In this document: positions 15,317 to 63,362 of the stretch, piece by piece
Numbering within the stretch: the stretch's first letter is position 1
Layout of the letters: each line of letters begins with the position of its first letter
Source of the DNA: a virus
Taxonomy: Duplodnaviria; Caudoviricetes
Length of the DNA stretch: 64,000 nucleotides
Direction: 5' to 3' (one strand)
Virus record (IMG/VR): IMGVR_UViG_3300048998_000202
Program-made: the position numbers and the translations under genes
The notes under the pieces: generated by a model
Databases searched by the model: none
What the model saw: the letters and a program-made list of their open reading frames with translations, nothing else
What the model was told of the DNA's origin: nothing

Positions 15317-15452
15317 AAAGGATCCCCTCCCACAAGGAGAGGGGATCCATCCGGGTCTTCTAGAGACCCTCCCTGCCATGCCATGACCTGCCACACCCTG
15401 CCAAGCCCTACCGGGCCGAGCCCTGCCACACCTTGCGACCCTGACTCTATCA
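15317..15452 (-). ncRNA. GGY-NN repeat small-RNA cassette A
   Basis: TGATAGAGT, 12 pentamers (NN: GT AG TC CC AG TT AG GT AG AT AT AG), then hairpins. Confidence 0.8.
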
Positions 15453-19963: not shown

Positions 19964-20063
19964 TAGAGTCAAGTCTTGCAGGGCACGGTAGGGCTAGGCT
20001 AGGCAAGGCCCGGCGCGGCAGGGCACGGCATGGAAGGGCGTCATCCTTCGGGGTGGCGCCCTC
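19961..20063 (+). ncRNA. GGY-NN repeat small-RNA cassette B
   Basis: TGATAGAGTCAAGTCTTGC, 10 pentamers (NN: AC AG TA TA AA CC GC AG AC AT), hairpin AGGGCGTCATCC-TTC-GGGTGGCGCCCT. Confidence 0.85.
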
Positions 20064-44705: not shown

Positions 44706-45179
44706 ATGACCAAGACTGCGAGCTCCTTCATCCGGGGGGACGACGAGGCCCGCTTCTGGTCCCACGTGGACCGGCGCGGCCCTGAGGAGTGCTGGCCCTG
44801 GACGGCGGGCACCGATCGGTGGGGATACGGCCAGTTCCGCGTGGAGGGACGTATCTGGCCCGCCCACCGCTGGGGCTACCACCACTTCGTCAAGCCCGTC
44901 CCGGACCATCTGACCATCGACCATGTAAAGGCATGGGGCTGCACCATAAGGCACTGCACCAACTTCCTGGCCCATATGGAAGTCGTCCCCGGCGACGTGA
45001 ATGTCATAAGGGGAAACGGCGTGTGCGCGATCAACGCGCGGAAGACGCACTGCAAACGCGGTCATCCGTTTTCCCCTTCCAACACCTTGATCCGCACCGA
45101 TGGGAGCCGGTACTGCCGTACCTGCAAATCCTTGCGTGAGCAGGGGCGCCTGGATCCCCTGCGCTTCGCCTCCTGCTGA
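44706..45179 (+). CDS. free-standing HNH homing endonuclease
   Basis: RFWSHVD..ECWPWT..GYGQF..AHR..TIDH..C..CTN..H..N; KTHCKRGH; opposite strand inside the tail operon. Confidence 0.88.
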   Translation: MTKTASSFIRGDDEARFWSHVDRRGPEECWPWTAGTDRWGYGQFRVEGRIWPAHRWGYHHFVKPVPDHLTIDHVKAWGCTIRHCTNFLAHMEVVPGDVNVIRGNGVCAINARKTHCKRGHPFSPSNTLIRTDGSRYCRTCKSLREQGRLDPLRFASC

Positions 45180-45183
45180 AGGG

Positions 45184-45690
45184 CTACTGGTTGAGGGCGC
45201 TCGTGTGGGTGTAGGCCACAGTGATGCCCTTGGTGACCGCCAGGCTGCCCACCGTGATGGTGTCGCCGTCGTTGATGTCCACGACGGTGCAGTTGTGGTA
45301 GTTCTTGCCGCGCCACGCCCCGGGGTTGTTCGTGGTTCCCGGAGGCTTGATCACCGTCTGGCAGGTGACGTAGTTCGGGTCGTTGGCCAGAGCAGCGAAG
45401 ATATCCACGATGTTCTTGGATCCGGCCAGACCCGAGAGCTGCTCCCACACGAAGGCGTTCCACAGTTCACGGATGGTCAGCATCAGGGTGCCGCCCTGGA
45501 GGACGCGGGAGGTCGCGATCTCCACGGGATGGGTGGCACCCAGGGGGTGGATGAACTGATAGGGCTGGCCGAGGTCGCTGAAGGCGCGTTGGCCGGAGTC
45601 CTCGACCCCCTCGCAGAAGGCGATGGCCTTCCCCTTGTAGAAGAACGTCGTGTAGCCACTTCCGACTACACGCACCTTCGTCTGAGGCAT
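45184..45690 (-). CDS. tail tube protein
   Basis: 168 aa directly downstream of the sheath. Confidence 0.78.
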   Translation of the reverse strand: MPQTKVRVVGSGYTTFFYKGKAIAFCEGVEDSGQRAFSDLGQPYQFIHPLGATHPVEIATSRVLQGGTLMLTIRELWNAFVWEQLSGLAGSKNIVDIFAALANDPNYVTCQTVIKPPGTTNNPGAWRGKNYHNCTVVDINDGDTITVGSLAVTKGITVAYTHTSALNQ

Positions 45691-45716
45691 TTTAAAATCT
45701 CCTAGTCAGCCGGAGG

Positions 45717-47276
45717 TCACGGAGTAGTCGTCGTGTCACTGGTGTCGGTGAGCGTCCCCGACGTCAGATCGATGGCGAACGTGACGGTGATGTAGTTCGC
45801 CGGGATCGCGGGCTCGTAGGAGAACTGGGCCTCGATGATCGAGGGATCCCCCTGCGGAGTGGCCTGCTGGCGAACCGCGACGTTGCCGTAACTGAGGATC
45901 ACGTTGTTGCTGATGGCGGTCTCCAGGATCCCCGTGAGGGCCCCCTTGACCTTGGTCGTCATGTCGGCGTCGATCGGCTGGCCGATGAGCCCGGCCGACT
46001 CCATGCCGGTCTGCACCAACTGGAAAAGGACGTCACCGATCCGGACCAGCGAGATCTCCCGGCTGGTCAGATCCGACATGTCCGTGGTGACCCCGTGCCG
46101 GATCTGGAGGACACCGCTCTGGGTCTGCTCCAGGACGGCCACACCAGCACTGGACAGCGAGTCCTTGAACACCCGAGTCTGCTGCTGGGCCAGGACGGCG
46201 GGCAGGCCGTTGAATCCGGTGACCGAGACGTGGGTCAGCCCGCGTTCGACATCTCCTCCGGCCAGGCGCCCGGCCATGGCCGCAGCCAGGTAGTAGCCGG
46301 AGACCGTGGTGGTCTGGGCCAGCAAGGAGTTGTAGAAGGAAAGCTGGTTGGGGTAGGCCAGCACGGTGCGCTTGGAGTGGATCGTGGTGGCCAGGACATC
46401 GAACCCCCGGGTGACCACGTCGTAGTTCGTCTCCACACCGACGAAGGCCATCCGGCCGAAGCCGTCGGCCGAAGCGTTCACACAGTGCGTGTTGACGTCC
46501 TGGACCAGAGCCAGGACGGCGTCTGCGCTGTGCGCGTTGGCCGCATCCCCTCCGTCCTCCGGAGACCCGTCCACGAACAGGGGGACGATCAGCGACGCCT
46601 CGTACCTCGCCTGAAGCTTGGCGTACGCCGCGAGGAACTGGTCCTTGATCGTGCCATCGGCCGGATTGGTGGCCAGCGCGAGCACCGTGGAGGCGCCATT
46701 GGCCATGGCCATCTGGGCGGCCAGGGTCAGCGCACAGATCACCTGGGAGGTGTTCGGGTTGGTTGGGGCCGAGGCCGTCAGGGCCGAGCCGTACGTCGCC
46801 GAGATCTGGCTGGGGTCGGTGAACTTCTGCGGGCTGTAGTAGTTCGTGTCGGCATAGCTGTAGGTCACGTAGACCACGGCGCCGTCGGTCAGGCCGTTCG
46901 GGGAGGGCCCTGACGGGGTTCCTGTGGTGCCCAGGCGGTGGATGTAGGTCACGGCGTTGGCCGCTCCCCCACCGCCGGAGGTGTCGACCACGAAGGTGTA
47001 GTCGGTGCCGTAGACCATGGTCGCCCCGGCGACGTTCTTCACCACGGGGGCGCCGATGGCCGGGGGGCCGGTGACTGCGGTGACGAAGATGCCCCGCTTG
47101 GACAGTGCCGTGTTCGAGTTCCAGTAGACCTGGACCACATCGGTGCTGGTTTGGTAACCCTGTGCCGGACCGACCACCGTCACGATGCCCGTGGGGACGG
47201 TGGTCGGTGTCACCACCGGTAGGGACGTGTCCTGCACGTACACGCCAGGCGGTACGTACGAAGTGAAGTCCGGCAT
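45717..47276 (-). CDS. tail sheath protein
   Basis: YVPPGVYVQD N-terminus; IRHGVTT..REISLVR; SYEPAIPANYITVTF C-terminus. Confidence 0.9.
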   Translation of the reverse strand: MPDFTSYVPPGVYVQDTSLPVVTPTTVPTGIVTVVGPAQGYQTSTDVVQVYWNSNTALSKRGIFVTAVTGPPAIGAPVVKNVAGATMVYGTDYTFVVDTSGGGGAANAVTYIHRLGTTGTPSGPSPNGLTDGAVVYVTYSYADTNYYSPQKFTDPSQISATYGSALTASAPTNPNTSQVICALTLAAQMAMANGASTVLALATNPADGTIKDQFLAAYAKLQARYEASLIVPLFVDGSPEDGGDAANAHSADAVLALVQDVNTHCVNASADGFGRMAFVGVETNYDVVTRGFDVLATTIHSKRTVLAYPNQLSFYNSLLAQTTTVSGYYLAAAMAGRLAGGDVERGLTHVSVTGFNGLPAVLAQQQTRVFKDSLSSAGVAVLEQTQSGVLQIRHGVTTDMSDLTSREISLVRIGDVLFQLVQTGMESAGLIGQPIDADMTTKVKGALTGILETAISNNVILSYGNVAVRQQATPQGDPSIIEAQFSYEPAIPANYITVTFAIDLTSGTLTDTSDTTTTP

Positions 47277-47309
47277 TACATACCCTCCGGGACCGGTTAG
47301 ATCGCGCTT

Positions 47310-47343
47310 CCACCCCTTCCGAGGAGCGGGGTCCGAGAGGACA
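47310..47343 (-). promoter_or_regulatory. candidate late promoter TGTC-N20-GAAGGGGTGG
   Basis: Upstream of the sheath gene. Confidence 0.7.
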
Positions 47344-47349
47344 GGAGGG

Positions 47350-48012
47350 TCAGTGCCACTCGGAGAACTGGCCTCCGGTGAGGTCCACTCCGTCTACCGG
47401 GGTGTACGTGAGCTCTCCCGGCAGCTCTTCTACGGGGATCATCACGATCTTGGAGAGGTTGATCAAAGTGCCTGCCGCCGGATCCGGGACGAACTCTCCG
47501 ATGATCTCCAGATTCAGGGACTTCTCGTACATGATCTCGTCGGTGCCCCAGGGGGTACCGGGAGCGGCCCCGTTGCCGCGCCCTTCGATCTTGTCCGTGT
47601 TGAGGGTCGCGGCGATCAGATCGTTGGAGGCGATGGTGTTCTTGAAGCGGCCGACGATGCCGTCTTCATTGCTGAAGGCCACCACTCGCACCAGCTCGTC
47701 ATAGAGCCGGTCTCGCTCCAGTGACGTCATGGCCACCGCCGTGAGGGAGACGTAGCCCTGAAACCGCCAGCGGGTGAAGGGGGCGACCGGAGTGGTGTCG
47801 TCGTTGGGATTGACGTACTCCAGGTGCCCGATGCCCGCACGCAGCAGTGGTTGGGTGTCCTCGAAGTCGATCCAGACCGAGGGGTAGTCCTGCTCGGCGA
47901 CCGGGTATTCCAGACCGATACGGATCCCCCGGAACTCCGGTACCGGATAGGACTCGTCGAAGGTCAGCGTGAGGGCCTCGTCCAAGAGGGTTTTCAGCGG
48001 GGCGACGTACAT
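47350..48012 (-). CDS. tail completion/terminator protein, putative
   Basis: Position upstream of the sheath; EYP...YPSV motif. Confidence 0.6.
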   Translation of the reverse strand: MYVAPLKTLLDEALTLTFDESYPVPEFRGIRIGLEYPVAEQDYPSVWIDFEDTQPLLRAGIGHLEYVNPNDDTTPVAPFTRWRFQGYVSLTAVAMTSLERDRLYDELVRVVAFSNEDGIVGRFKNTIASNDLIAATLNTDKIEGRGNGAAPGTPWGTDEIMYEKSLNLEIIGEFVPDPAAGTLINLSKIVMIPVEELPGELTYTPVDGVDLTGGQFSEWH

Positions 48013-48016
48013 GGGA

Positions 48017-48724
48017 TCAGCTCACCTTCAGCCGGGACCGCCAGGTGCCGTCGGCCAGATAGACACGGGTGGGGAGAATGCCGTTCCACTGTGCGGCCAA
48101 AGTGACCGCATTATTCAAGAACAGCCGGGGTTCGATACCCGGGTGCCGCCAGCGCACGCCGACGTTCCCCCGGGAGATCTGGCCGCCCTGTTTCCCGTTC
48201 CTGGTCCAGGGGGCTGATGCTTCCCGGTTGGCGATCCGGCCCGGGGCACCGGGGTAGGACGCGGGCTTGTCGGAGATGACGACGCGGTTGCCCTGCCGGT
48301 CCTTGCCGTACTTGGTGATCCGCTGGCCGATGTTGGCCACCTTGCGGAAGATCAGCACCTGCGTCTTGCCGGACATGGTGACCCGGACCTTGGCCTTGGG
48401 GTTCTTCGCCCGCTCCTGGCCAGTGGGGTCGTTGATCCACATGGGAATGGTCTTACCGGCGAGATTCCTCATGGTGAAGGGACGAATTCCGTGGTCCTGA
48501 AAGAACACATAGGAGTCGGCCCACCAAATTCCGAAATACCCTTTTCCGTAGATCGGCTGGAGCCGGGCTGCGCTGGAACCGGACATCTTCGGCATTTTTC
48601 TACGGCATTCCCGTACGGCTGCAAGCGCGCACGATCGGGCCCGGCCCGGCGTCATCTTGGGGACGACCATGATGATTCGGTCCGGATTTTCCGCGATTCT
48701 CAGTTCGGCCGTTTCCAAAAGCAA
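48017..48724 (-). CDS. basic neck/virion morphogenesis protein
   Basis: FQDHGIRPF and WRHPGIEPRLFL resemble HK97 gp10-like motifs. Confidence 0.55.
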   Translation of the reverse strand: MLLETAELRIAENPDRIIMVVPKMTPGRARSCALAAVRECRRKMPKMSGSSAARLQPIYGKGYFGIWWADSYVFFQDHGIRPFTMRNLAGKTIPMWINDPTGQERAKNPKAKVRVTMSGKTQVLIFRKVANIGQRITKYGKDRQGNRVVISDKPASYPGAPGRIANREASAPWTRNGKQGGQISRGNVGVRWRHPGIEPRLFLNNAVTLAAQWNGILPTRVYLADGTWRSRLKVS

Positions 48725-48753
48725 TATTATCGCCCACCCAAGTAGGTCAGTCC

Positions 48754-49509
48754 TCAGTCCAGGCCCGAGTCGTGATGCTCGTTCCAGTCGTCCTCGTCCT
48801 CGTAGTTGTCCGAGTCGTCGTGTCCGAGGTCCTCTTCGCCCACCACGGAGAAGCCGTGCTTGGACCGCATGTCATCGTCGAAATTGCCCCGCAGATTGCC
48901 GTGCTCGTCGCGAGCGGGGTCCTTCTCTACTGGTCCCCTGGGCTCAACCTGATAGACGTGGGGACGCACGCCATCATGCATTTCGGCTGCACGATCGGCG
49001 TAGTGCTCAGCCCACTTCCGGCTGGTGGCGTAGGCATAGCCGGGCTCATGGATACCGCCGTTGTTGCCGAAGGTCCCCCTGGTCCCGTGGTTGGGGTGGA
49101 TGTGCTCCAGGTCTGCTTCGGTGCTGCCGTGGTAGTACATCGGGGCGGTGCCGGACTCGTTCGAGGACTGGTCGTGGATGTGCACCGGCACCTCGCCGTG
49201 CCCGGCGTCGCGCAGGGCGTGCAGCAGGTGCTCGTGGTGGTCGTTCGGGTGGTCCGGGTGGGCCTCGGTCCCGCGCGAGTGCGTGTAGAGGTTCTCTCCG
49301 TTGTCGGTGACGTTGATCCCGAGCTGGCCGTGTCGTTTCGGGTTGTAGCCGTGCTGCTTGATCGAGCTGGCCAGCTCGTCGATGTGCTTGCCGTTCAGCT
49401 CGTACCGGCTCTTGTCCCCCTCCATGTCCCCGGGGTGGATGTGCTCCTCGGAGTCCTGGGGAGCCCAGGAGGCCGTACGGACCATGGCAGTACGCCAGAG
49501 AAGGCTCAT
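48754..49509 (-). CDS. degenerate ParB-like domain plus Arr-type ADP-ribosyltransferase domain
   Basis: YYHGS...YAYATS...VYQVEPRGPVEKDP...MRSKHGFSVVGE parallels the Arr ART pattern. Confidence 0.65.
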   Translation of the reverse strand: MSLLWRTAMVRTASWAPQDSEEHIHPGDMEGDKSRYELNGKHIDELASSIKQHGYNPKRHGQLGINVTDNGENLYTHSRGTEAHPDHPNDHHEHLLHALRDAGHGEVPVHIHDQSSNESGTAPMYYHGSTEADLEHIHPNHGTRGTFGNNGGIHEPGYAYATSRKWAEHYADRAAEMHDGVRPHVYQVEPRGPVEKDPARDEHGNLRGNFDDDMRSKHGFSVVGEEDLGHDDSDNYEDEDDWNEHHDSGLD

Positions 49510-54041: not shown

Positions 54042-54151
54042 CTGAGGGCGCCACCCCGAAGGATGACGCCCTCCCCTGCCGCGCCGCGCCTCGCCCTGCC
54101 ATGCCGAGCCTAGCCGTGCCGTGCCGCGCCGTGCAAAACCTGACTCTATCA
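54042..54151 (-). ncRNA. GGY-NN repeat small-RNA cassette C
   Basis: TGATAGAGT, 11 GGC-NN pentamers (GC AC AC TA TC AT AG GA GC GC AG), hairpin nearly identical to cassette B. Confidence 0.85.
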
Positions 54152-55982: not shown

Positions 55983-56086
55983 GAAGGCCCGCTCCCCACG
56001 GGCGGGCCTTCGTGCACACTCATCAGGATTTTAAAATCCTGTCTCCTGCTGCTGCGCTGCTCCACGCTGCGGAGCGGACTCTATCA
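55983..56086 (-). ncRNA. non-repeat small-RNA cassette F
   Basis: Same TGATAGAGT head and GAAGG...CCTTC terminal hairpin; body has hairpins rather than pentamers. Confidence 0.5.
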
Positions 56087-56674
56087 GGACGTGGGGGTCT
56101 GCGACCGCTCGGTCAGCATCTGCTGGAGACGGTTCAGGGCCTGCTCCTGCTTCTCGACCTTGTCCGCCAGTTCGGCAGTGGTCTCCTTGGTCTCCCGGCG
56201 GACGGCCTGGGTCTCCTTGCGGGCGGCCTTCAGCCCCTCCTCCAGCCGATCCTGCCGCCGCGACAGACGCCGGGTGATGTCCGAGACGGCCTGGAGAGCC
56301 CCGGCCTGAGCGTCGTACACCTGCCCCTGCTGCGGAGTCAGCTCGTTGCGGTCGGCCTTGGTCAGAAGATCTATGGCCGTACGGATCCGGCGGTTGGCCT
56401 TCTTGGTCTGGTACCGGGCCGCGCCCCCGTGCTCGGAGGCGTGCATGACGCGGTAGCCCACTTCCCGCTCGTTGGTCAGAGCCCGCTGGTGCTTGTCCAG
56501 CAGCTCCTTCTCCGCACGTCTCACCGGGCTGCGGTCGAGCCGGATGTTGATTCCGGCCCACTCCGAGAGCTCCTCGTACGTGACGACGGTGTCCGGATCG
56601 AGGTCGCGCAGACCCTCATAGATCAGGACCCAACGGGCGACGTCGCCCTTGGGCTCGAACGGCTTGGTGCCCAT
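56084..56674 (-). CDS. partner protein of the RAMP-like gene (wHTH-like N-terminus, coiled-coil C-terminus)
   Basis: VVTYEELSEWAG..VRRAEKEL..NEREVGYRV; heptad-rich C-terminus; co-oriented, 44 nt downstream. Confidence 0.65.
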   Translation of the reverse strand: MGTKPFEPKGDVARWVLIYEGLRDLDPDTVVTYEELSEWAGINIRLDRSPVRRAEKELLDKHQRALTNEREVGYRVMHASEHGGAARYQTKKANRRIRTAIDLLTKADRNELTPQQGQVYDAQAGALQAVSDITRRLSRRQDRLEEGLKAARKETQAVRRETKETTAELADKVEKQEQALNRLQQMLTERSQTPTS

Positions 56675-56718: not shown

Positions 56719-57297
56719 TCAGCCCTGGATCTGGGTGACCTCGACGTCGAACCGCCCGAACCGGGGACGGTAGTCACCCAGTCCGATCATCTGGCCCGCC
56801 TTCTCGGCGATGCTGGTGATCTGGTCCAGGTCGAGCTGGCCGTCGTCCACGATCAGGTCGGCCTCCAGCGCCCACTGCGGGAACTTGGGCCGGGTGCGCA
56901 TGACGCGCGAGGTGGTGACCCCCACGGAGAGCCGGGAGACGAAGTTCTTGTCCTTCCACAGTCCCTCGACCGTACGGGATCCGCTGTAGCCCAGGGGGTG
57001 GATCTCGTTGACGACGACGACACCTCGCTCGACGGCCGGGCCCTGCCGGGTCATCTTGGCCGCCTTGATCAGGCAGGCGTGGATGTTGGCGCCGGGGATG
57101 TACGGACCGGTCTCCTCGTCGAAGTACAGGCCGCCCTCGAACTCGATGCGGGCCATCTCCTCGTGGTCGGACTCGGTCTTGATGCGCTTGCCGGAGACCT
57201 TTTTGAGCTGCTTGGTGATGGTCGCCAGCGGGTCGGACAGTTGCGCGTTGTGCATCAGCAGCGACGTGGTTCCGATGATGGTCAGGCGGACCTGCAT
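56719..57297 (-). CDS. RAMP/Cas7(Csm3)-like RNA-binding protein, candidate effector of the GGY-NN RNAs
   Basis: N-terminal strand VRLTIIGTTSLLMH, PYIPGANIHACL (cf. Csm3 PYIPGSSLKG), Gly-rich loop GLGDYRPRFGRF; RBS before ATG at 57297. Confidence 0.75.
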   Translation of the reverse strand: MQVRLTIIGTTSLLMHNAQLSDPLATITKQLKKVSGKRIKTESDHEEMARIEFEGGLYFDEETGPYIPGANIHACLIKAAKMTRQGPAVERGVVVVNEIHPLGYSGSRTVEGLWKDKNFVSRLSVGVTTSRVMRTRPKFPQWALEADLIVDDGQLDLDQITSIAEKAGQMIGLGDYRPRFGRFDVEVTQIQG

Positions 57298-57334
57298 GAG
57301 TTCTCCCTGGTGTCGGTACTCTCTGGCGCCACCG

Positions 57335-57364
57335 AACATACTCCAAGGATTGTTGGAGTGTCAA
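57335..57364 (-). promoter_or_regulatory. sigma70-type promoter TTGACA-N18-TATGTT with a palindromic operator as spacer
   Basis: Spacer is CTCCAA-CAATCC-TTGGAG. Confidence 0.7.
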
Positions 57365-57370
57365 CGGGGC

Positions 57371-57874
57371 AAAACGAAGGGCCCGGGATCCGAAGATCCC
57401 GGGCCCTTCTCCATGCCTCGCCGTGTCGAGCCTTGCCATGCCGGGCCATGCCCGACCAAGCCGTGCCACGCAAGACTTGACTCTGTCAGTTCCACCACGA
57501 TCTGTCAAACGACGAAGGGGACCACCCGGAGGTGATCCCCTTCTCCCTGCCGTGCCTTACCCGGCCCTGCCTAGCCATGCCACACCGCACCACGCCCCGC
57601 AGGTCTTGACGTTATCAAGACCCTTCGGAGCCGTCAATGACGAAGGGGCCCTCCGTAGAGGACCCCTTCTCCTATGCCAAACCTAGCCATACCCTACCCT
57701 GCCACGCCAAACCTAGCCAAGCCATGCCCTGCAAGACTTGACTCTGTCAGCTCCTACGGCATCTGTCAACGACGGAGGGGCCCCACCGTAGTGGAGCCCC
57801 TCTCCCATGCCCGGCCTTACCCAGCCCTGCCTTGCCTCACCTCGGCCAGCCGTACCGAGACCTTGACTGTATCA
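57371..57874 (-). ncRNA. array D: four tandem GGY-NN small-RNA cassettes (D1 57874-57774, D2 57769-57642, D3 57637-57514, D4 57508-57371)
   Basis: Each has a TGA-extended -10 (D2-D4 with TTGACR 17 nt upstream), 10-11 pentamers and a GC hairpin. Confidence 0.88.
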
Positions 57875-57877
57875 GGA

Positions 57878-58747
57878 TCAGTAGAACCGGGACCAGTACC
57901 GGGGCCGCGCCGCCACCGAGCCCGCCATGCGGGTAGGCCCGTACCTGCCGTAGACGCCGCCCGAGATCAGGACGGCCGGGCGTCCGAGACCCATCTGGCT
58001 GATCTTGAAGACATCGAGCTGGGACTTGGCGGCCTGCTCCTCCTCCATGAGGACGTCCCGCCAGCGCTGGACGTAGTCCCGGCGGTCCAGTCGGGAGACG
58101 TTGCCGGAGCCCTGGAACATGGGCTGCTCGGTGTAGGAGCGGATCAGGTGCTTGAGGGTCTCGATCCAGGTCATGGCCTCCAGCAGCGGGCCCCACTGGG
58201 GATAGGGGAACTGCGCTCCCCCGTCGCCGTCCACGGTGAAGGTCTGGAAGGGCTGCGCGATGGTGTTCATGCGCCCGAGCGCGATGCGCATCAGTTCGGC
58301 GATCCGGCCCCGGCCGAACTTCGACTGGACGTAGGTCGTCAGGTTGGGGCCGCCACCTGGGGAGTCGATGGTGTCGGCGATGCGGACCATGACGCGCTCG
58401 ATGATGTCTTTCATCGGGACCACCAGGCCGTCGTACGACGGGGCGGCCGGGCCGATCTCGATGCCGGACTCGTAGTACTCCTGCTGACCGGTCAGCAGGT
58501 ATGTCCAGGCCAGGGTGTAGGAGCCCGGGACGGAGGTCTCCACGCTGTTGAAGGTCGCCGAGTAGTCGCCGGTCGCGTTGTGGGTGGCCAGCCGGGAGAA
58601 GATCTCGTTGCCGGTGTTCTCGGAGACCATGGTGAGGGTGACCCCGGCGTCGGCATCTATCGGGACCTGGTTCTGGAGGATCTTCAGTCCCACCACGTCC
58701 ACGGCGTACTGCGATACGTACTGCCGATCGTTCCAGTACAAGGCCAT
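57878..58747 (-). CDS. head-tail adaptor protein, putative
   Basis: Position in the head module. Confidence 0.55.
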   Translation of the reverse strand: MALYWNDRQYVSQYAVDVVGLKILQNQVPIDADAGVTLTMVSENTGNEIFSRLATHNATGDYSATFNSVETSVPGSYTLAWTYLLTGQQEYYESGIEIGPAAPSYDGLVVPMKDIIERVMVRIADTIDSPGGGPNLTTYVQSKFGRGRIAELMRIALGRMNTIAQPFQTFTVDGDGGAQFPYPQWGPLLEAMTWIETLKHLIRSYTEQPMFQGSGNVSRLDRRDYVQRWRDVLMEEEQAAKSQLDVFKISQMGLGRPAVLISGGVYGRYGPTRMAGSVAARPRYWSRFY

Positions 58748-62598: not shown

Positions 62599-63362
62599 TA
62601 TCGTCAGGGGTTACTGGGCTCGGCAGGGCTAGGTAGGGCAGGACTGGGCACGGCATGGGAGGGGCTTCCTACGGGGAGCCCCTCAGCCGTTGACAGGCGC
62701 TCTTGGGAGTGACAGAGTCAGGTCTTGCAGGACCACACGTGGGCGTGTGGAGAAGGGGCGCTTCTTCCAGGAGGCGCCCCTTCGTCGTTTGACAGACCGG
62801 CACGGGGGTGACAAAGTCAGGTCTTGCATGATGGGAAGGACACACGGTTGGTTTCTGAGGCCGGAACCGTGTGGATGCGATCGGCCCTCAAGGCCGTGGA
62901 CGCGTCCGAAGGCCCCCTCTGAAGATTCCTGGAGGGGGCCTTCGTTCGTTTGACCGGACGACATTAGGGCTGACAGGGTCAGTTCTTACAGGGCACCGTC
63001 TGGTTGGGCACGGTAAGGCATGGTGGGGTAAGGCACGGCTGGGCAGGGGAGGGCGACCATCTTCGGATGGTCGCCCTCAGCCGTTTGACAGGTGCGGGTG
63101 GAGCTGACAGAGTCAAGTCTTGCAGGGCCGGGCCCGGTAGGGCGTGGTTTGGCGTGGTGTGGTTGGGCAACGCATGGCATGGCATGGCAGGGGAAAGGCC
63201 CCAGGATTTTAAAATCCTGGGGCCTTTCGTTACGCCCTGAAGGAACTGATAGAGTCATGGTCTCGGCAGGCCGAGGCTAGGTAAGGCACGGCGGGGCAAG
63301 GCACCGCCCGGTAGGGCAAGGCATGGGGAAGGCCCCCTCGGATTCTCCCGAGGGGGCCTTCC
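62596..63362 (+). ncRNA. array E: six tandem cassettes (E1 62596-62684, E2 62690-62783, E3 62789-62943, E4 62950-63078, E5 63085-63228, E6 63247-63362); E2 and E3 lack pentamers
   Basis: Repeating promoter-like head, 8-13 GGY-NN pentamers and GC hairpin. Confidence 0.88.

What the first reader, a model, noticed from the sequence alone, without database searches (positions are those of the whole stretch)
57514..57637. Guide D3 decodes to an SF2 helicase motif-III peptide, possibly a host defence or helicase gene
The units (GG) GT GC GT AT TA AG CG AA AC AG, reverse-complemented as codon positions 1-2, give L-V-[F/L]-R-L-Y-[I/M]-T-A-T-P. RLYMTATP / FRLYLTATP is, from my recollection, the motif III context of Type ISP restriction-modification enzymes and of Streptomyces DEAD/Res-type (TtrA-like) helicases. 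The phage's own helicases differ (VVMLTATP, IVMSATL). This independently supports the wobble-skipping antisense code and suggests a non-self target, possibly anti-defence.
Basis: partly seen in the sequence, partly recalled or inferred. Interest (0 to 1): 0.85.

Follow-up and report, generated by a model that had tools for sequence, protein, structure and literature searches.

The report
VIPR guide RNA aimed at ttrA helicase
This stretch is one guide-RNA gene of a phage VIPR system (a CRISPR-related RNA-guided gene-silencing system described in 2026), and its guide matches codon by codon the conserved motif III of the TtrA helicase gene that sits near the ends of Streptomyces linear chromosomes and plasmids, so the phage probably silences that bacterial or plasmid gene.

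Summary
Window 57514-57637 (- strand) is a small transcription unit: promoter, short leader, 11 NN-GG-Y pentamers and a 13-bp GC hairpin. It is one of four tandem units directly upstream of a gene whose product matches the SUSP1 Vipr protein (PDB 36pp, E 3.3e-35).

The decoded target is CTnGTnTTnCGnCTnTAnATnACnGCnACnCC. Of these, 27 are Streptomyces and one is Microtetraspora, and all 28 are in frame as FRLYMTATP. The gene is a ~900-aa ResIII/DEAD helicase with HA domains, the TtrA family of telomere-proximal helicases (76% identical to SLP2 ttrA).

With at most 1 mismatch, 36 of 121 Streptomyces genomes match. Shuffled and reversed controls gave 0-2 places. A Type ISP restriction enzyme also matches at 18/22. 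There is no self-target.

The neighbouring guide matches DruE, the helicase of the Druantia anti-phage defence system. This gives some support to an anti-defence reading, but that reading is not shown for this guide.

The kind is known and the target class is new. Earlier notes of this scan had found VIPR arrays on other DNA.

The parts
57632..57637 (-). -35-like hexamer TTGACG of the D3 vrRNA promoter
   Evidence: Read directly. It lies 17 nt upstream of the -10. The same TTGAC element stands before several sibling units.
57607..57617 (-). Conserved promoter box TGATAACGTCA, containing the -10 hexamer TAACGT (57614-57609)
   Evidence: T34 G35 A36 A38 G41 T42 C43 A44 are invariant in the alignment of 11 units. 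The box fits an extended -10 (TGn) plus the Streptomyces TAnnnT type. This is inferred, not shown by RNA data.
57599..57606 (-). Short leader (AGACCTGC) between the promoter box and the first repeat. Its TGC stands where a GGY would be.
   Evidence: The transcription start is inferred.
57544..57598 (-). Guide tract of 11 pentamers NN-GG-Y. NN = GG GT GC GT AT TA AG CG AA AC AG.
   Evidence: The architecture is as published for vrRNAs (9-16 GGY/NN units).
57514..57543 (-). 3' tail: GC-rich 13-bp hairpin (GAAGGGGAUCACC/GGUGGUCCCCUUC) followed by GUCGUUUG. Probable terminator and 3' cap of the vrRNA.
   Evidence: Fold of 57506-57604(-): -53.7 kcal/mol, z -3.97.
56719..57297 (-). vipr gene (RAMP/Cas7-like Vipr protein). 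Probable start is the ATG at 57297 behind GGGAGAA, giving 192 aa. The longest ORF starts at 57339.
   Evidence: phmmer against PDB 36pp_D 'SUSP1 Vipr protein': E 3.3e-35 over residues 18-202. H17, K33, R138, D177 and R179 are conserved and W178 is Y (residue roles). phrog_4652. A promoter-like site lies at 57364-57335.
56084..56674 (-). Candidate vipr-accessory gene (vap), 196 aa
   Evidence: It is co-oriented and directly downstream of vipr. Its only phage homologue lies directly downstream of the vipr homologue of Mycobacterium prophage prophiBWHA-1. No Pfam, PDB or PADLOC match.
57411..57467 (-). Sibling vrRNA guide tract (12 units), last unit before vipr
   Evidence: No Streptomyces target found.
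57677..57728 (-). Sibling vrRNA guide tract (11 units) directly upstream of D3. It decodes to ..ILLTNYKML.
   Evidence: In-frame hits in druE of 11 of 121 Streptomyces genomes, control 0.
57805..57856 (-). Sibling vrRNA guide tract (11 units), first of the four tandem units
   Evidence: One near-hit in 121 genomes.
62607..63326 (+). Second cluster of four vrRNA units (62607-62663, 62992-63053, 63126-63192, 63265-63326), plus two non-pentamer units behind the same promoter box
54069..54140 (-). Solitary vrRNA unit
19982..20038 (+). Solitary vrRNA unit
15371..15432 (-). Solitary vrRNA unit

Best explanation
The stretch is a vrRNA gene of a type II-like VIPR system in a Streptomyces-type phage.

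Shown here: it lies in a tandem of four such genes directly upstream of vipr. It has the published GGY/NN repeat architecture. Its NN string, read by the published 1-nt-skip rule, matches in frame the motif III coding sequence (F-R-L-Y-M/L-T-A-T-P) of TtrA-family helicase genes of Streptomyces linear chromosomes and linear plasmids.

Inferred from the published SUSP1 work: the ~95-nt RNA is made from its own promoter. One Vipr protomer binds each GGY and presents the NN pairs. The filament opens the target DNA, pairs two bases and skips the wobble base, and so blocks transcription of the gene. Because only codon positions 1-2 are read, synonymous drift in ttrA does not free the target.

The nine 5'-proximal units match perfectly. 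The two 3' units (AC, AG) do not match. They belong to the near-constant '..AC AT AG' end shared by most vrRNAs of this phage, so they are probably part of the handle.

Why the phage would silence ttrA is open. TtrA is needed for conjugal transfer of linear plasmids, and it marks telomeres. One possibility is that the phage immobilises competing linear plasmids or telomeric elements. The other is that this helicase family hinders the phage.
For: Identity as VIPR: the Vipr protein matches PDB 36pp_D with E 3.3e-35 and keeps the RNA- and DNA-contact residues. There are 11 GGY/NN units followed by a 3' hairpin. A promoter box is shared by 11 units. A syntenic accessory gene is present. The same arrays occur in more than 120 IMG/VR contigs.

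Target: the 9-unit pattern gave 27 Streptomyces loci and 1 Microtetraspora locus, all in frame in ...PWAAIHDNxRIPA[AD]FRLYMTATPRILAAPRP. The gene has ResIII/DEAD plus 4 HA domains. Homologues lie 0.1-5 kb from the ends of Streptomyces linear plasmids, among them SLP2, SAP1 and the Streptomyces sp. FR1 plasmid NC_010851. The SLP2 ttrA matches in frame at 18/22. TtrA's role and subtelomeric position are taken from PMC8743542 and bioRxiv 10.1101/2024.11.13.623437.

Scores: the M-variant matches at 19/22 (86%) and the L-variant at 18/22 (82%). Both pass the published threshold of at least 80% NN.

Background: exact matches occur in 5 of 401 Streptomyces genomes, against 0 for the reversed pattern. 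With at most 1 mismatch there are 42 places in 36 of 121 genomes. Controls gave 0 (reversed), 0 (shuffled) and 2 (reversed shuffle). Three other guides of this phage gave 0, 0 and 1.

No self-target: the best score in the window is 15/22, the same as shuffles.
Against: All 28 exact hits belong to one gene family, so they count as one independent event. The same pattern also hits a conserved motif by chance in non-host phyla. That motif is ..AGVAVMYSRN.., on the opposite strand, in a 410-745 aa protein of 12 Bacteroidota, Leptospira and Gemmatimonadota genomes. I therefore estimate roughly a 5-10% chance that the Streptomyces hit is fortuitous.

Only about 1% of Streptomyces species carry the perfect variant. 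None of the other ten guides hits the 8 kb around ttrA, so there is no convergence on one element. The host of this phage is unknown. No expression or binding data exist for this system. TtrA has no known role in phage infection. Two of the eleven units do not pair.
Confidence: 0.7

Rival explanations
1. The guide is a real vrRNA, but its selected target is a helicase-based defence gene of the natural host. Candidates are a Type ISP/IIG restriction-modification enzyme or another ResIII/HA helicase. On this reading the TtrA matches are a by-product of shared motif III, and D3 is an RNA-guided anti-defence guide.
For: A Streptomyces Type ISP enzyme (Mrr_cat_2 + ResIII + ISP_coupler + N6_Mtase + Type_ISP_C) carries DLRLYMTATPRVY and matches at 18/22. 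A Campylobacteraceae Type ISP enzyme matches the 9 units exactly. The TtrA helicase domain is homologous to Type IIG enzymes (PADLOC E 1.2e-35). The neighbouring guide matches druE in defence islands.
Against: All exact Streptomyces matches are TtrA-type. Among the matches with at most 1 mismatch in 121 genomes, only one genome has a Type ISP hit and three have non-telomeric HA-helicase paralogues. All the other matched places are of the TtrA type.
Confidence: 0.15
2. The match to helicase motif III is a coincidence. The guide's true target is an unsampled phage, satellite or plasmid gene, or the guide has no current target.
For: One chance hit to a conserved family was seen in non-host phyla with the same pattern. 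At 19/22 over all 11 units the background is not negligible: another guide gave 7 hits against 3 control hits per 101 genomes at 3 mismatches or fewer. No 10-unit exact match exists in IMG/VR, GTDB genomes or JGI metagenomes. Published VIPR targets are mostly satellites and prophages.
Against: The nine contiguous variable units match perfectly, in codon phase, in the genus that the phage's proteins, promoter type and other guide point to as its host. Shuffled and reversed controls gave 0-2 places against 42. The two unmatched units are the constant 3' units.
Confidence: 0.1
3. The pentamer tract is not a guide at all. It could be a binding site for a ring-shaped RNA-binding protein (TRAP-like, 11 x 5 nt), a two-tier G-quadruplex, or a protein sponge.
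For: This was my first reading from the anatomy alone: about 11 units with a 5-nt period and GG in each.
Against: A close homologue of the structurally characterised Vipr protein is encoded next to it. The published structures explain the GGY/NN period. The NN strings of two guides spell conserved protein motifs in frame.
Confidence: 0.03

Closest known systems
Type II VIPR system of Escherichia phage SUSP1 (Vipr + vrRNA + Vap1; bioRxiv 10.64898/2026.04.26.720920 and .720927; PDB 36pp)
   Same: The Vipr protein is homologous (E 3.3e-35) and the GGY-binding and skip-base residues are conserved. The ~100-nt vrRNAs have 9-16 GGY/NN units. vrRNA genes lie in the intergenic DNA flanking vipr. An accessory gene lies downstream. 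Targets are in coding DNA, read two bases on and one off in wobble phase. There is no self-target.
   Different: The host is an actinomycete and the DNA is 65% GC. Each vrRNA has its own promoter box. Each ends in a plain GC hairpin, not in the pseudoknot tail described for the SUSP1 clade. Seven further vrRNA units are scattered over at least 48 kb. The best target is a gene of the host chromosome or of linear plasmids (ttrA), not a phage satellite.
Pseudomonas fulva prophage VIPR clade (same preprint)
   Same: Guides are aimed at conserved coding sequence of resident genetic elements, under the rule of at least 80% NN identity.
   Different: Those guides converge on prophage lysis-lysogeny regulators. 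Here no convergence on one element was seen.
Telomeric type I-E CRISPR-associated transposons of Streptomyces (bioRxiv 10.1101/2024.11.13.623437)
   Same: It is another RNA-guided system that picks ttrA as its favoured target. 5.9% of its spacers match ttrA, so the gene serves as a conserved marker of linear-replicon ends.
   Different: It uses contiguous CRISPR spacers and Cascade, and the purpose is transposon homing. It is not encoded by a phage.
Class 1 CRISPR Cas7 backbone and CRISPR interference by DNA binding
   Same: Both have a RAMP filament on a guide RNA with thumb-induced periodic base flipping, and both silence by binding without cutting.
   Different: Class 1 CRISPR pairs 5 of every 6 guide bases. 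Here 2 of every 5 guide bases pair with 2 of every 3 target bases. There is no CRISPR array, no adaptation genes and no PAM.

Membership tests
VIPR system | A Vipr protein (minimal RAMP with RRM core, G-loop and thumb) | tested here: met
   The product of 56719-57297(-) matches the SUSP1 Vipr protein (36pp_D) at E 3.3e-35 over 185 residues. The G-loop reads GLGDYRPRFGRF against GVGDWRPRFGRF. H17, K33, R138, D177 and R179 are conserved.
VIPR system | A vrRNA built of tandem GGY/NN pentamers (9-16 units; at least 4 for calling) | tested here: met
   There are 11 units at 57544-57598(-). GG is invariant. The fifth base is C or T in 10 units and A in the last.
VIPR system | vrRNA genes in the intergenic DNA next to vipr | tested here: met
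   Four tandem units lie at 57372-57905, directly upstream of vipr on the same strand.
VIPR system | A structured, invariant 3' tail capping the repeat tract (a pseudoknot in the SUSP1 clade) | tested here: inconclusive
   A 13-bp GC hairpin follows every tract. Its sequence differs between units, and no pseudoknot was looked for or seen.
VIPR system | An accessory gene (vap) with vipr | tested here: inconclusive
   The 196-aa gene downstream is syntenic with vipr in one mycobacterial prophage. It has no recognisable domain.
VIPR system | A natural target obeying the 1-nt-skip rule at 80% NN identity or more, with skipped bases on codon wobble positions and no self-target | tested here: met
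   The match to ttrA is 19/22 (M-variant) or 18/22 (L-variant), in frame. The best self score is 15/22, the same as shuffles.
VIPR system | The vrRNA is expressed, co-purifies with Vipr, and represses a matching target | not testable with these tools
TtrA family (the target gene) | An SF2 ResIII/DEAD helicase with C-terminal HA (PF03457) repeats, homologous to SLP2 ttrA | tested here: met
   ResIII + DEAD + 4 HA domains. 76% identity over 100% of its length to the SLP2 gene at 46125-48770.
TtrA family (the target gene) | Position close to the ends of linear replicons | tested here: met
   On linear plasmids the matches lie 0.1-5 kb from record ends. Many genome hits lie 1-4 kb from contig ends.
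Anti-phage defence gene (as the target class for D3) | The target gene belongs to a described defence system | tested here: not met
   In PADLOC, TtrA matches only the helicase part of the Type IIG and PbeA models. It has no nuclease or methylase. Its neighbours are heterogeneous. A Type ISP enzyme is a second-best match in 1 of 121 genomes.

The most novel reading that the evidence does not exclude
This phage uses VIPR to silence host genes rather than rival viruses. D3 shuts off the telomere-proximal TtrA helicase and its Type ISP and HA-helicase relatives. The neighbouring guide shuts off the Druantia helicase DruE. VIPR would then be an RNA-guided anti-defence weapon. TtrA-type helicases would have an unrecognised role in limiting phage infection, or in some function of linear replicons that harms the phage.
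Probability: 0.35. Interest if true: 0.8.

Novelty: new member of a known kind. Interest (0 to 1): 0.6.

Why it matters
VIPR was described only in 2026. It has been studied in E. coli and Pseudomonas, where its guides hit satellites, prophages and other VIPR loci. This is an actinophage example in which two adjacent guides have clear, statistically supported matches to bacterial SF2-helicase genes. One is ttrA, the conjugation and telomere helicase of linear replicons. The other is druE, a bona fide defence gene.

If these matches are real, the known uses of the gapped code would extend to host and plasmid genes and to anti-defence. It would also give a concrete handle on the poorly understood function of TtrA. 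The matches show how the code lets a guide follow a conserved protein motif across hundreds of divergent species.

Tried and rejected
(1) My first reading from the anatomy was a TRAP-like ring-protein site, a G-quadruplex or an RNA sponge. I dropped it once the Vipr homologue and the VIPR papers were found.

(2) Rfam at gathering scores and tRNA scans of the window gave nothing.

(3) DNA similarity of the locus and of 25 kb of the window to INPHARED phages gave no match. The phage has no close sequenced relative. The nearest protein hit is a minor tail protein of Streptomyces phage Frankenweenie at 41%.

(4) The 10-unit exact pattern gave 0 hits in IMG/VR, GTDB genomes and JGI metagenomes.

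(5) The 9-unit pattern in IMG/VR gave 0 hits. The L-variant pattern gave 10 hits in ~50% GC contigs, all in short frames and none a helicase. TtrA homologues are absent from INPHARED phages. A phage-borne target is therefore not supported.

(6) The other ten guides were scanned against the 28 ttrA loci. There were no hits at 75% or more.

(7) I looked for D3-like guides elsewhere, in IMG/VR, in JGI metagenomes and in 1 Mb of fetched VIPR loci. None was found.

(8) Guides g57411, g19982 and g54069 were searched against 101-121 Streptomyces genomes. They gave nothing or only noise-level hits.

(9) I tested a defence-island context for ttrA. Its neighbours are heterogeneous.

(10) Rfam on the non-actinobacterial hits gave nothing. 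They proved to be an opposite-strand coding motif.

(11) No whole genome and no sequencing runs were available for this window.

Full report
**What is there**

Read on the - strand, window 57637-57514 is a compact transcription unit:
- a TTGACG hexamer at 57637-57632;
- 17 nt further on, a TGATAACGTCA box at 57617-57607 that contains a TAnnnT-type -10;
- an 8-nt leader;
- eleven pentamers of the form NN-GG-Y at 57598-57544;
- a 13-bp GC hairpin at 57543-57514.

Ten more units with the same grammar lie in the window: three in tandem with this one, four at 62.6-63.3 kb on the + strand, and single ones at 15.4, 20.0 and 54.1 kb. An alignment of the 11 upstream regions shows an invariant TGAyNNNGTCA box.

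**What kind of thing it is**

My first guess, from the 11 x 5-nt period, was a ring-protein binding site. That guess was wrong.

Most carry several such tracts. Earlier notes of this scan and a literature search both pointed to the VIPR systems described in 2026.

In those systems a small RAMP protein, Vipr, polymerises on a vrRNA made of GGY/NN repeats. It hides each GGY and presents the NN pairs. These pair with two of every three bases of double-stranded DNA (the "1-nt skip rule"). In natural targets the skipped base falls on the codon wobble position, and the outcome is transcriptional silencing.

The test for membership is the protein. The ORF directly downstream of the four tandem units matches the SUSP1 Vipr protein of PDB 36pp with E 3.3e-35 over 185 residues. 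The published contact residues H17, K33, R138, D177 and R179 are conserved, and W178 is replaced by Y. The next gene, of 196 aa, has its only phage homologue directly downstream of the vipr homologue of a mycobacterial prophage. That makes it a candidate accessory gene.

**The decoded target**

By that rule D3 reads CTnGTnTTnCGnCTnTAnATnACnGCnACnCC. A 10-unit exact pattern found nothing in IMG/VR, in one genome per 185,579 prokaryotic species, or in JGI metagenomes.

- Twenty-seven are Streptomyces and one is Microtetraspora. All 28 are in frame in the same context, PWAAIHDNxRIPA[AD]-FRLYMTATP-RILAAPRP.
- One is a Campylobacteraceae Type ISP restriction-modification enzyme with EFRLYMTATPRVY.
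- One is a Thiomicrospira gene with the related ALRLYMTATPRVF, in an open frame that I did not annotate.

The actinomycete gene encodes a ~900-aa protein with ResIII/DEAD helicase domains and four HA domains. Its homologues sit 0.1-5 kb from the ends of hundreds of Streptomyces linear plasmids, among them SLP2, SAP1 and the Streptomyces sp. FR1 plasmid NC_010851. It is 76% identical to the SLP2 gene at 46125-48770, which is ttrA.

ttrA is the inward-facing, telomere-proximal helicase required for conjugal transfer of SLP2. It is present at the ends of most streptomycete replicons (PMC8743542; bioRxiv 10.1101/2024.11.13.623437).

**How good the match is**

Among the 120 closest homologues, the motif is [FY]R[LF]YLTATP in about 86% and FRLYMTATP in about 14%. 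D3 carries AT at that position, so its scores are:
- M-variant: 18/18 over nine units, 19/22 overall;
- L-variant, including SLP2 ttrA: 17/18 over nine units, 18/22 overall.

Both exceed the published threshold of 80% NN.

The two units that never pair, AC and AG, are the 3'-most. Most vrRNAs of this phage end in a near-constant "..AC AT AG". They are therefore probably part of the handle, and all nine variable units match.

**Is it more than chance?**

In Streptomyces genomes sampled evenly across the genus:

| Pattern | Mismatches allowed | Result |
|---|---|---|
| D3, 9 units | 0 | 5 of 401 genomes |
| D3 reversed | 0 | 0 of 401 genomes |
| D3, 9 units | up to 1 | 42 places in 36 of 121 genomes |
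| D3 reversed | up to 1 | 0 places |
| D3 shuffled | up to 1 | 0 places |
| D3 shuffled, reversed | up to 1 | 2 places |
| Three other guides of this phage | up to 1 or 2 | 0, 0 and 1 places |

One caution applies. Hits within one gene family are a single independent event. The same pattern also produced one chance family hit. Twelve Bacteroidota, Leptospira and Gemmatimonadota genomes match in frame on the opposite strand, in a protein with the motif AGVAVMYSRN.

That sets the base rate at roughly one fortuitous conserved-motif hit per guide across all prokaryotes. The chance that such a hit falls in the host genus is roughly 5-10%. I therefore put the helicase motif III target at about 0.8-0.85, and TtrA specifically at about 0.7.

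**Non-self**

The window holds no site within 3 mismatches. The best self score is 15/22, the same as for shuffled guides. The phage's own helicases read IVMSATL and VVMLTATP. TtrA homologues are absent from INPHARED phages, and the IMG/VR hits of the L-variant pattern are not helicases.

**Defence or not?**

TtrA itself is not a described defence protein. In PADLOC it matches only the helicase part of Type IIG enzymes. Its neighbours are heterogeneous: transposases, a TnsB-like gene, HA-domain proteins.

- A genuine Streptomyces Type ISP enzyme matches D3 at 18/22.
- The guide directly upstream of D3 (57677-57728) decodes to ILLTNYKML. It hits PPDIL[IL]TNYKMLDLLLQR in frame in 11 of 121 Streptomyces genomes, with 0 control hits.
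- That gene is a 2,200-2,370-aa DEAD/Helicase_C/MZB protein that matches the PADLOC DruE models at about 1e-90. It lies beside UvrD-like, DrmD-like and Type IIG genes.

The three VIPR preprints I read describe satellites, prophages, other VIPR loci and host REP decoys as targets. They do not describe host defence genes as targets.

A different link is that telomeric type I-E CRISPR-associated transposons of Streptomyces also favour ttrA as a spacer target. ttrA is thus a proven conserved address for RNA-guided systems on linear replicons.

**Verdict**

The element is a new member of a known, very recently described kind. What is new is the target class. The biological reason for silencing ttrA is not settled. 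It may be competition with linear plasmids and telomeric elements, or it may be counter-defence.

Noticed in passing
window 57677-57728 (-): The vrRNA directly upstream of D3 decodes to [K/N]Y[I/M]LLT[K/N]Y[K/N][I/M]L. It matches PPDIL[IL]TNYKMLDLLLQR in frame in 11 of 121 Streptomyces genomes (control 0). The gene is a 2,200-2,370-aa DruE (Druantia) helicase in defence islands. This would be a phage VIPR guide against a host defence gene.
   Followed up: yes
window 62690-62790 and 62790-62945 (+): Two small units have the same TGAyAGAGTCA promoter box and a terminator hairpin but no GGY/NN tract. One is a ~35-nt remnant. The other is a ~110-nt non-repetitive RNA. They may be decayed vrRNAs or a different small RNA.
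   Followed up: no
window 57805-57856 (-); L192:526-3027: The core of this guide has a single 1-mismatch in-frame hit (GFHLFSSHV) in one of 121 Streptomyces genomes. It lies in an ORF of more than 830 aa whose N-terminal sequence looked to me like a GHKL-type ATPase (not tested against any family library). This is too thin to call.
   Followed up: partly
window 63265-63326 (+) and ~63500 (-): This guide's best match in the window is 20/26 at about 63500. That is above all 50 shuffles (maximum 19) but below 80%. It is a near-self site in the gene next to the array, and another first-reader note says the same.
   Followed up: partly
L125-L128, L132, L135, L141, L143, L145, L158, L161, L163: The D3 pattern also matches, on the opposite strand and in frame, a conserved ..NAGVAVMYSRN.. 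motif of a 410-745 aa protein in Bacteroidota, Leptospira and Gemmatimonadota. This is an example of a chance hit to a conserved motif and serves as a calibration for such searches.
   Followed up: yes
L002-L121 (IMG/VR): GGY/NN tracts are very common in uncultured phage contigs of 30-70% GC. They have varied array styles: 3-4-nt linkers such as AGTT, TAA, CTTT or AGGC, hairpin-separated units, and tracts ending just before an RBS and ATG.
   Followed up: partly
L193:4426-5628 (SLP2, record 44783-45985): The gene next to SLP2 ttrA is annotated as an 'ABC-three component system protein', a family linked to conflict systems.
   Followed up: no
window 56719-57339 (-): Vipr homologues of 47-55% identity occur in Gordonia phages MakoManhole and Trine and in Mycobacterium phages LittleE and prophiBWHA-1. 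None was found in any Streptomyces phage of INPHARED.
   Followed up: partly
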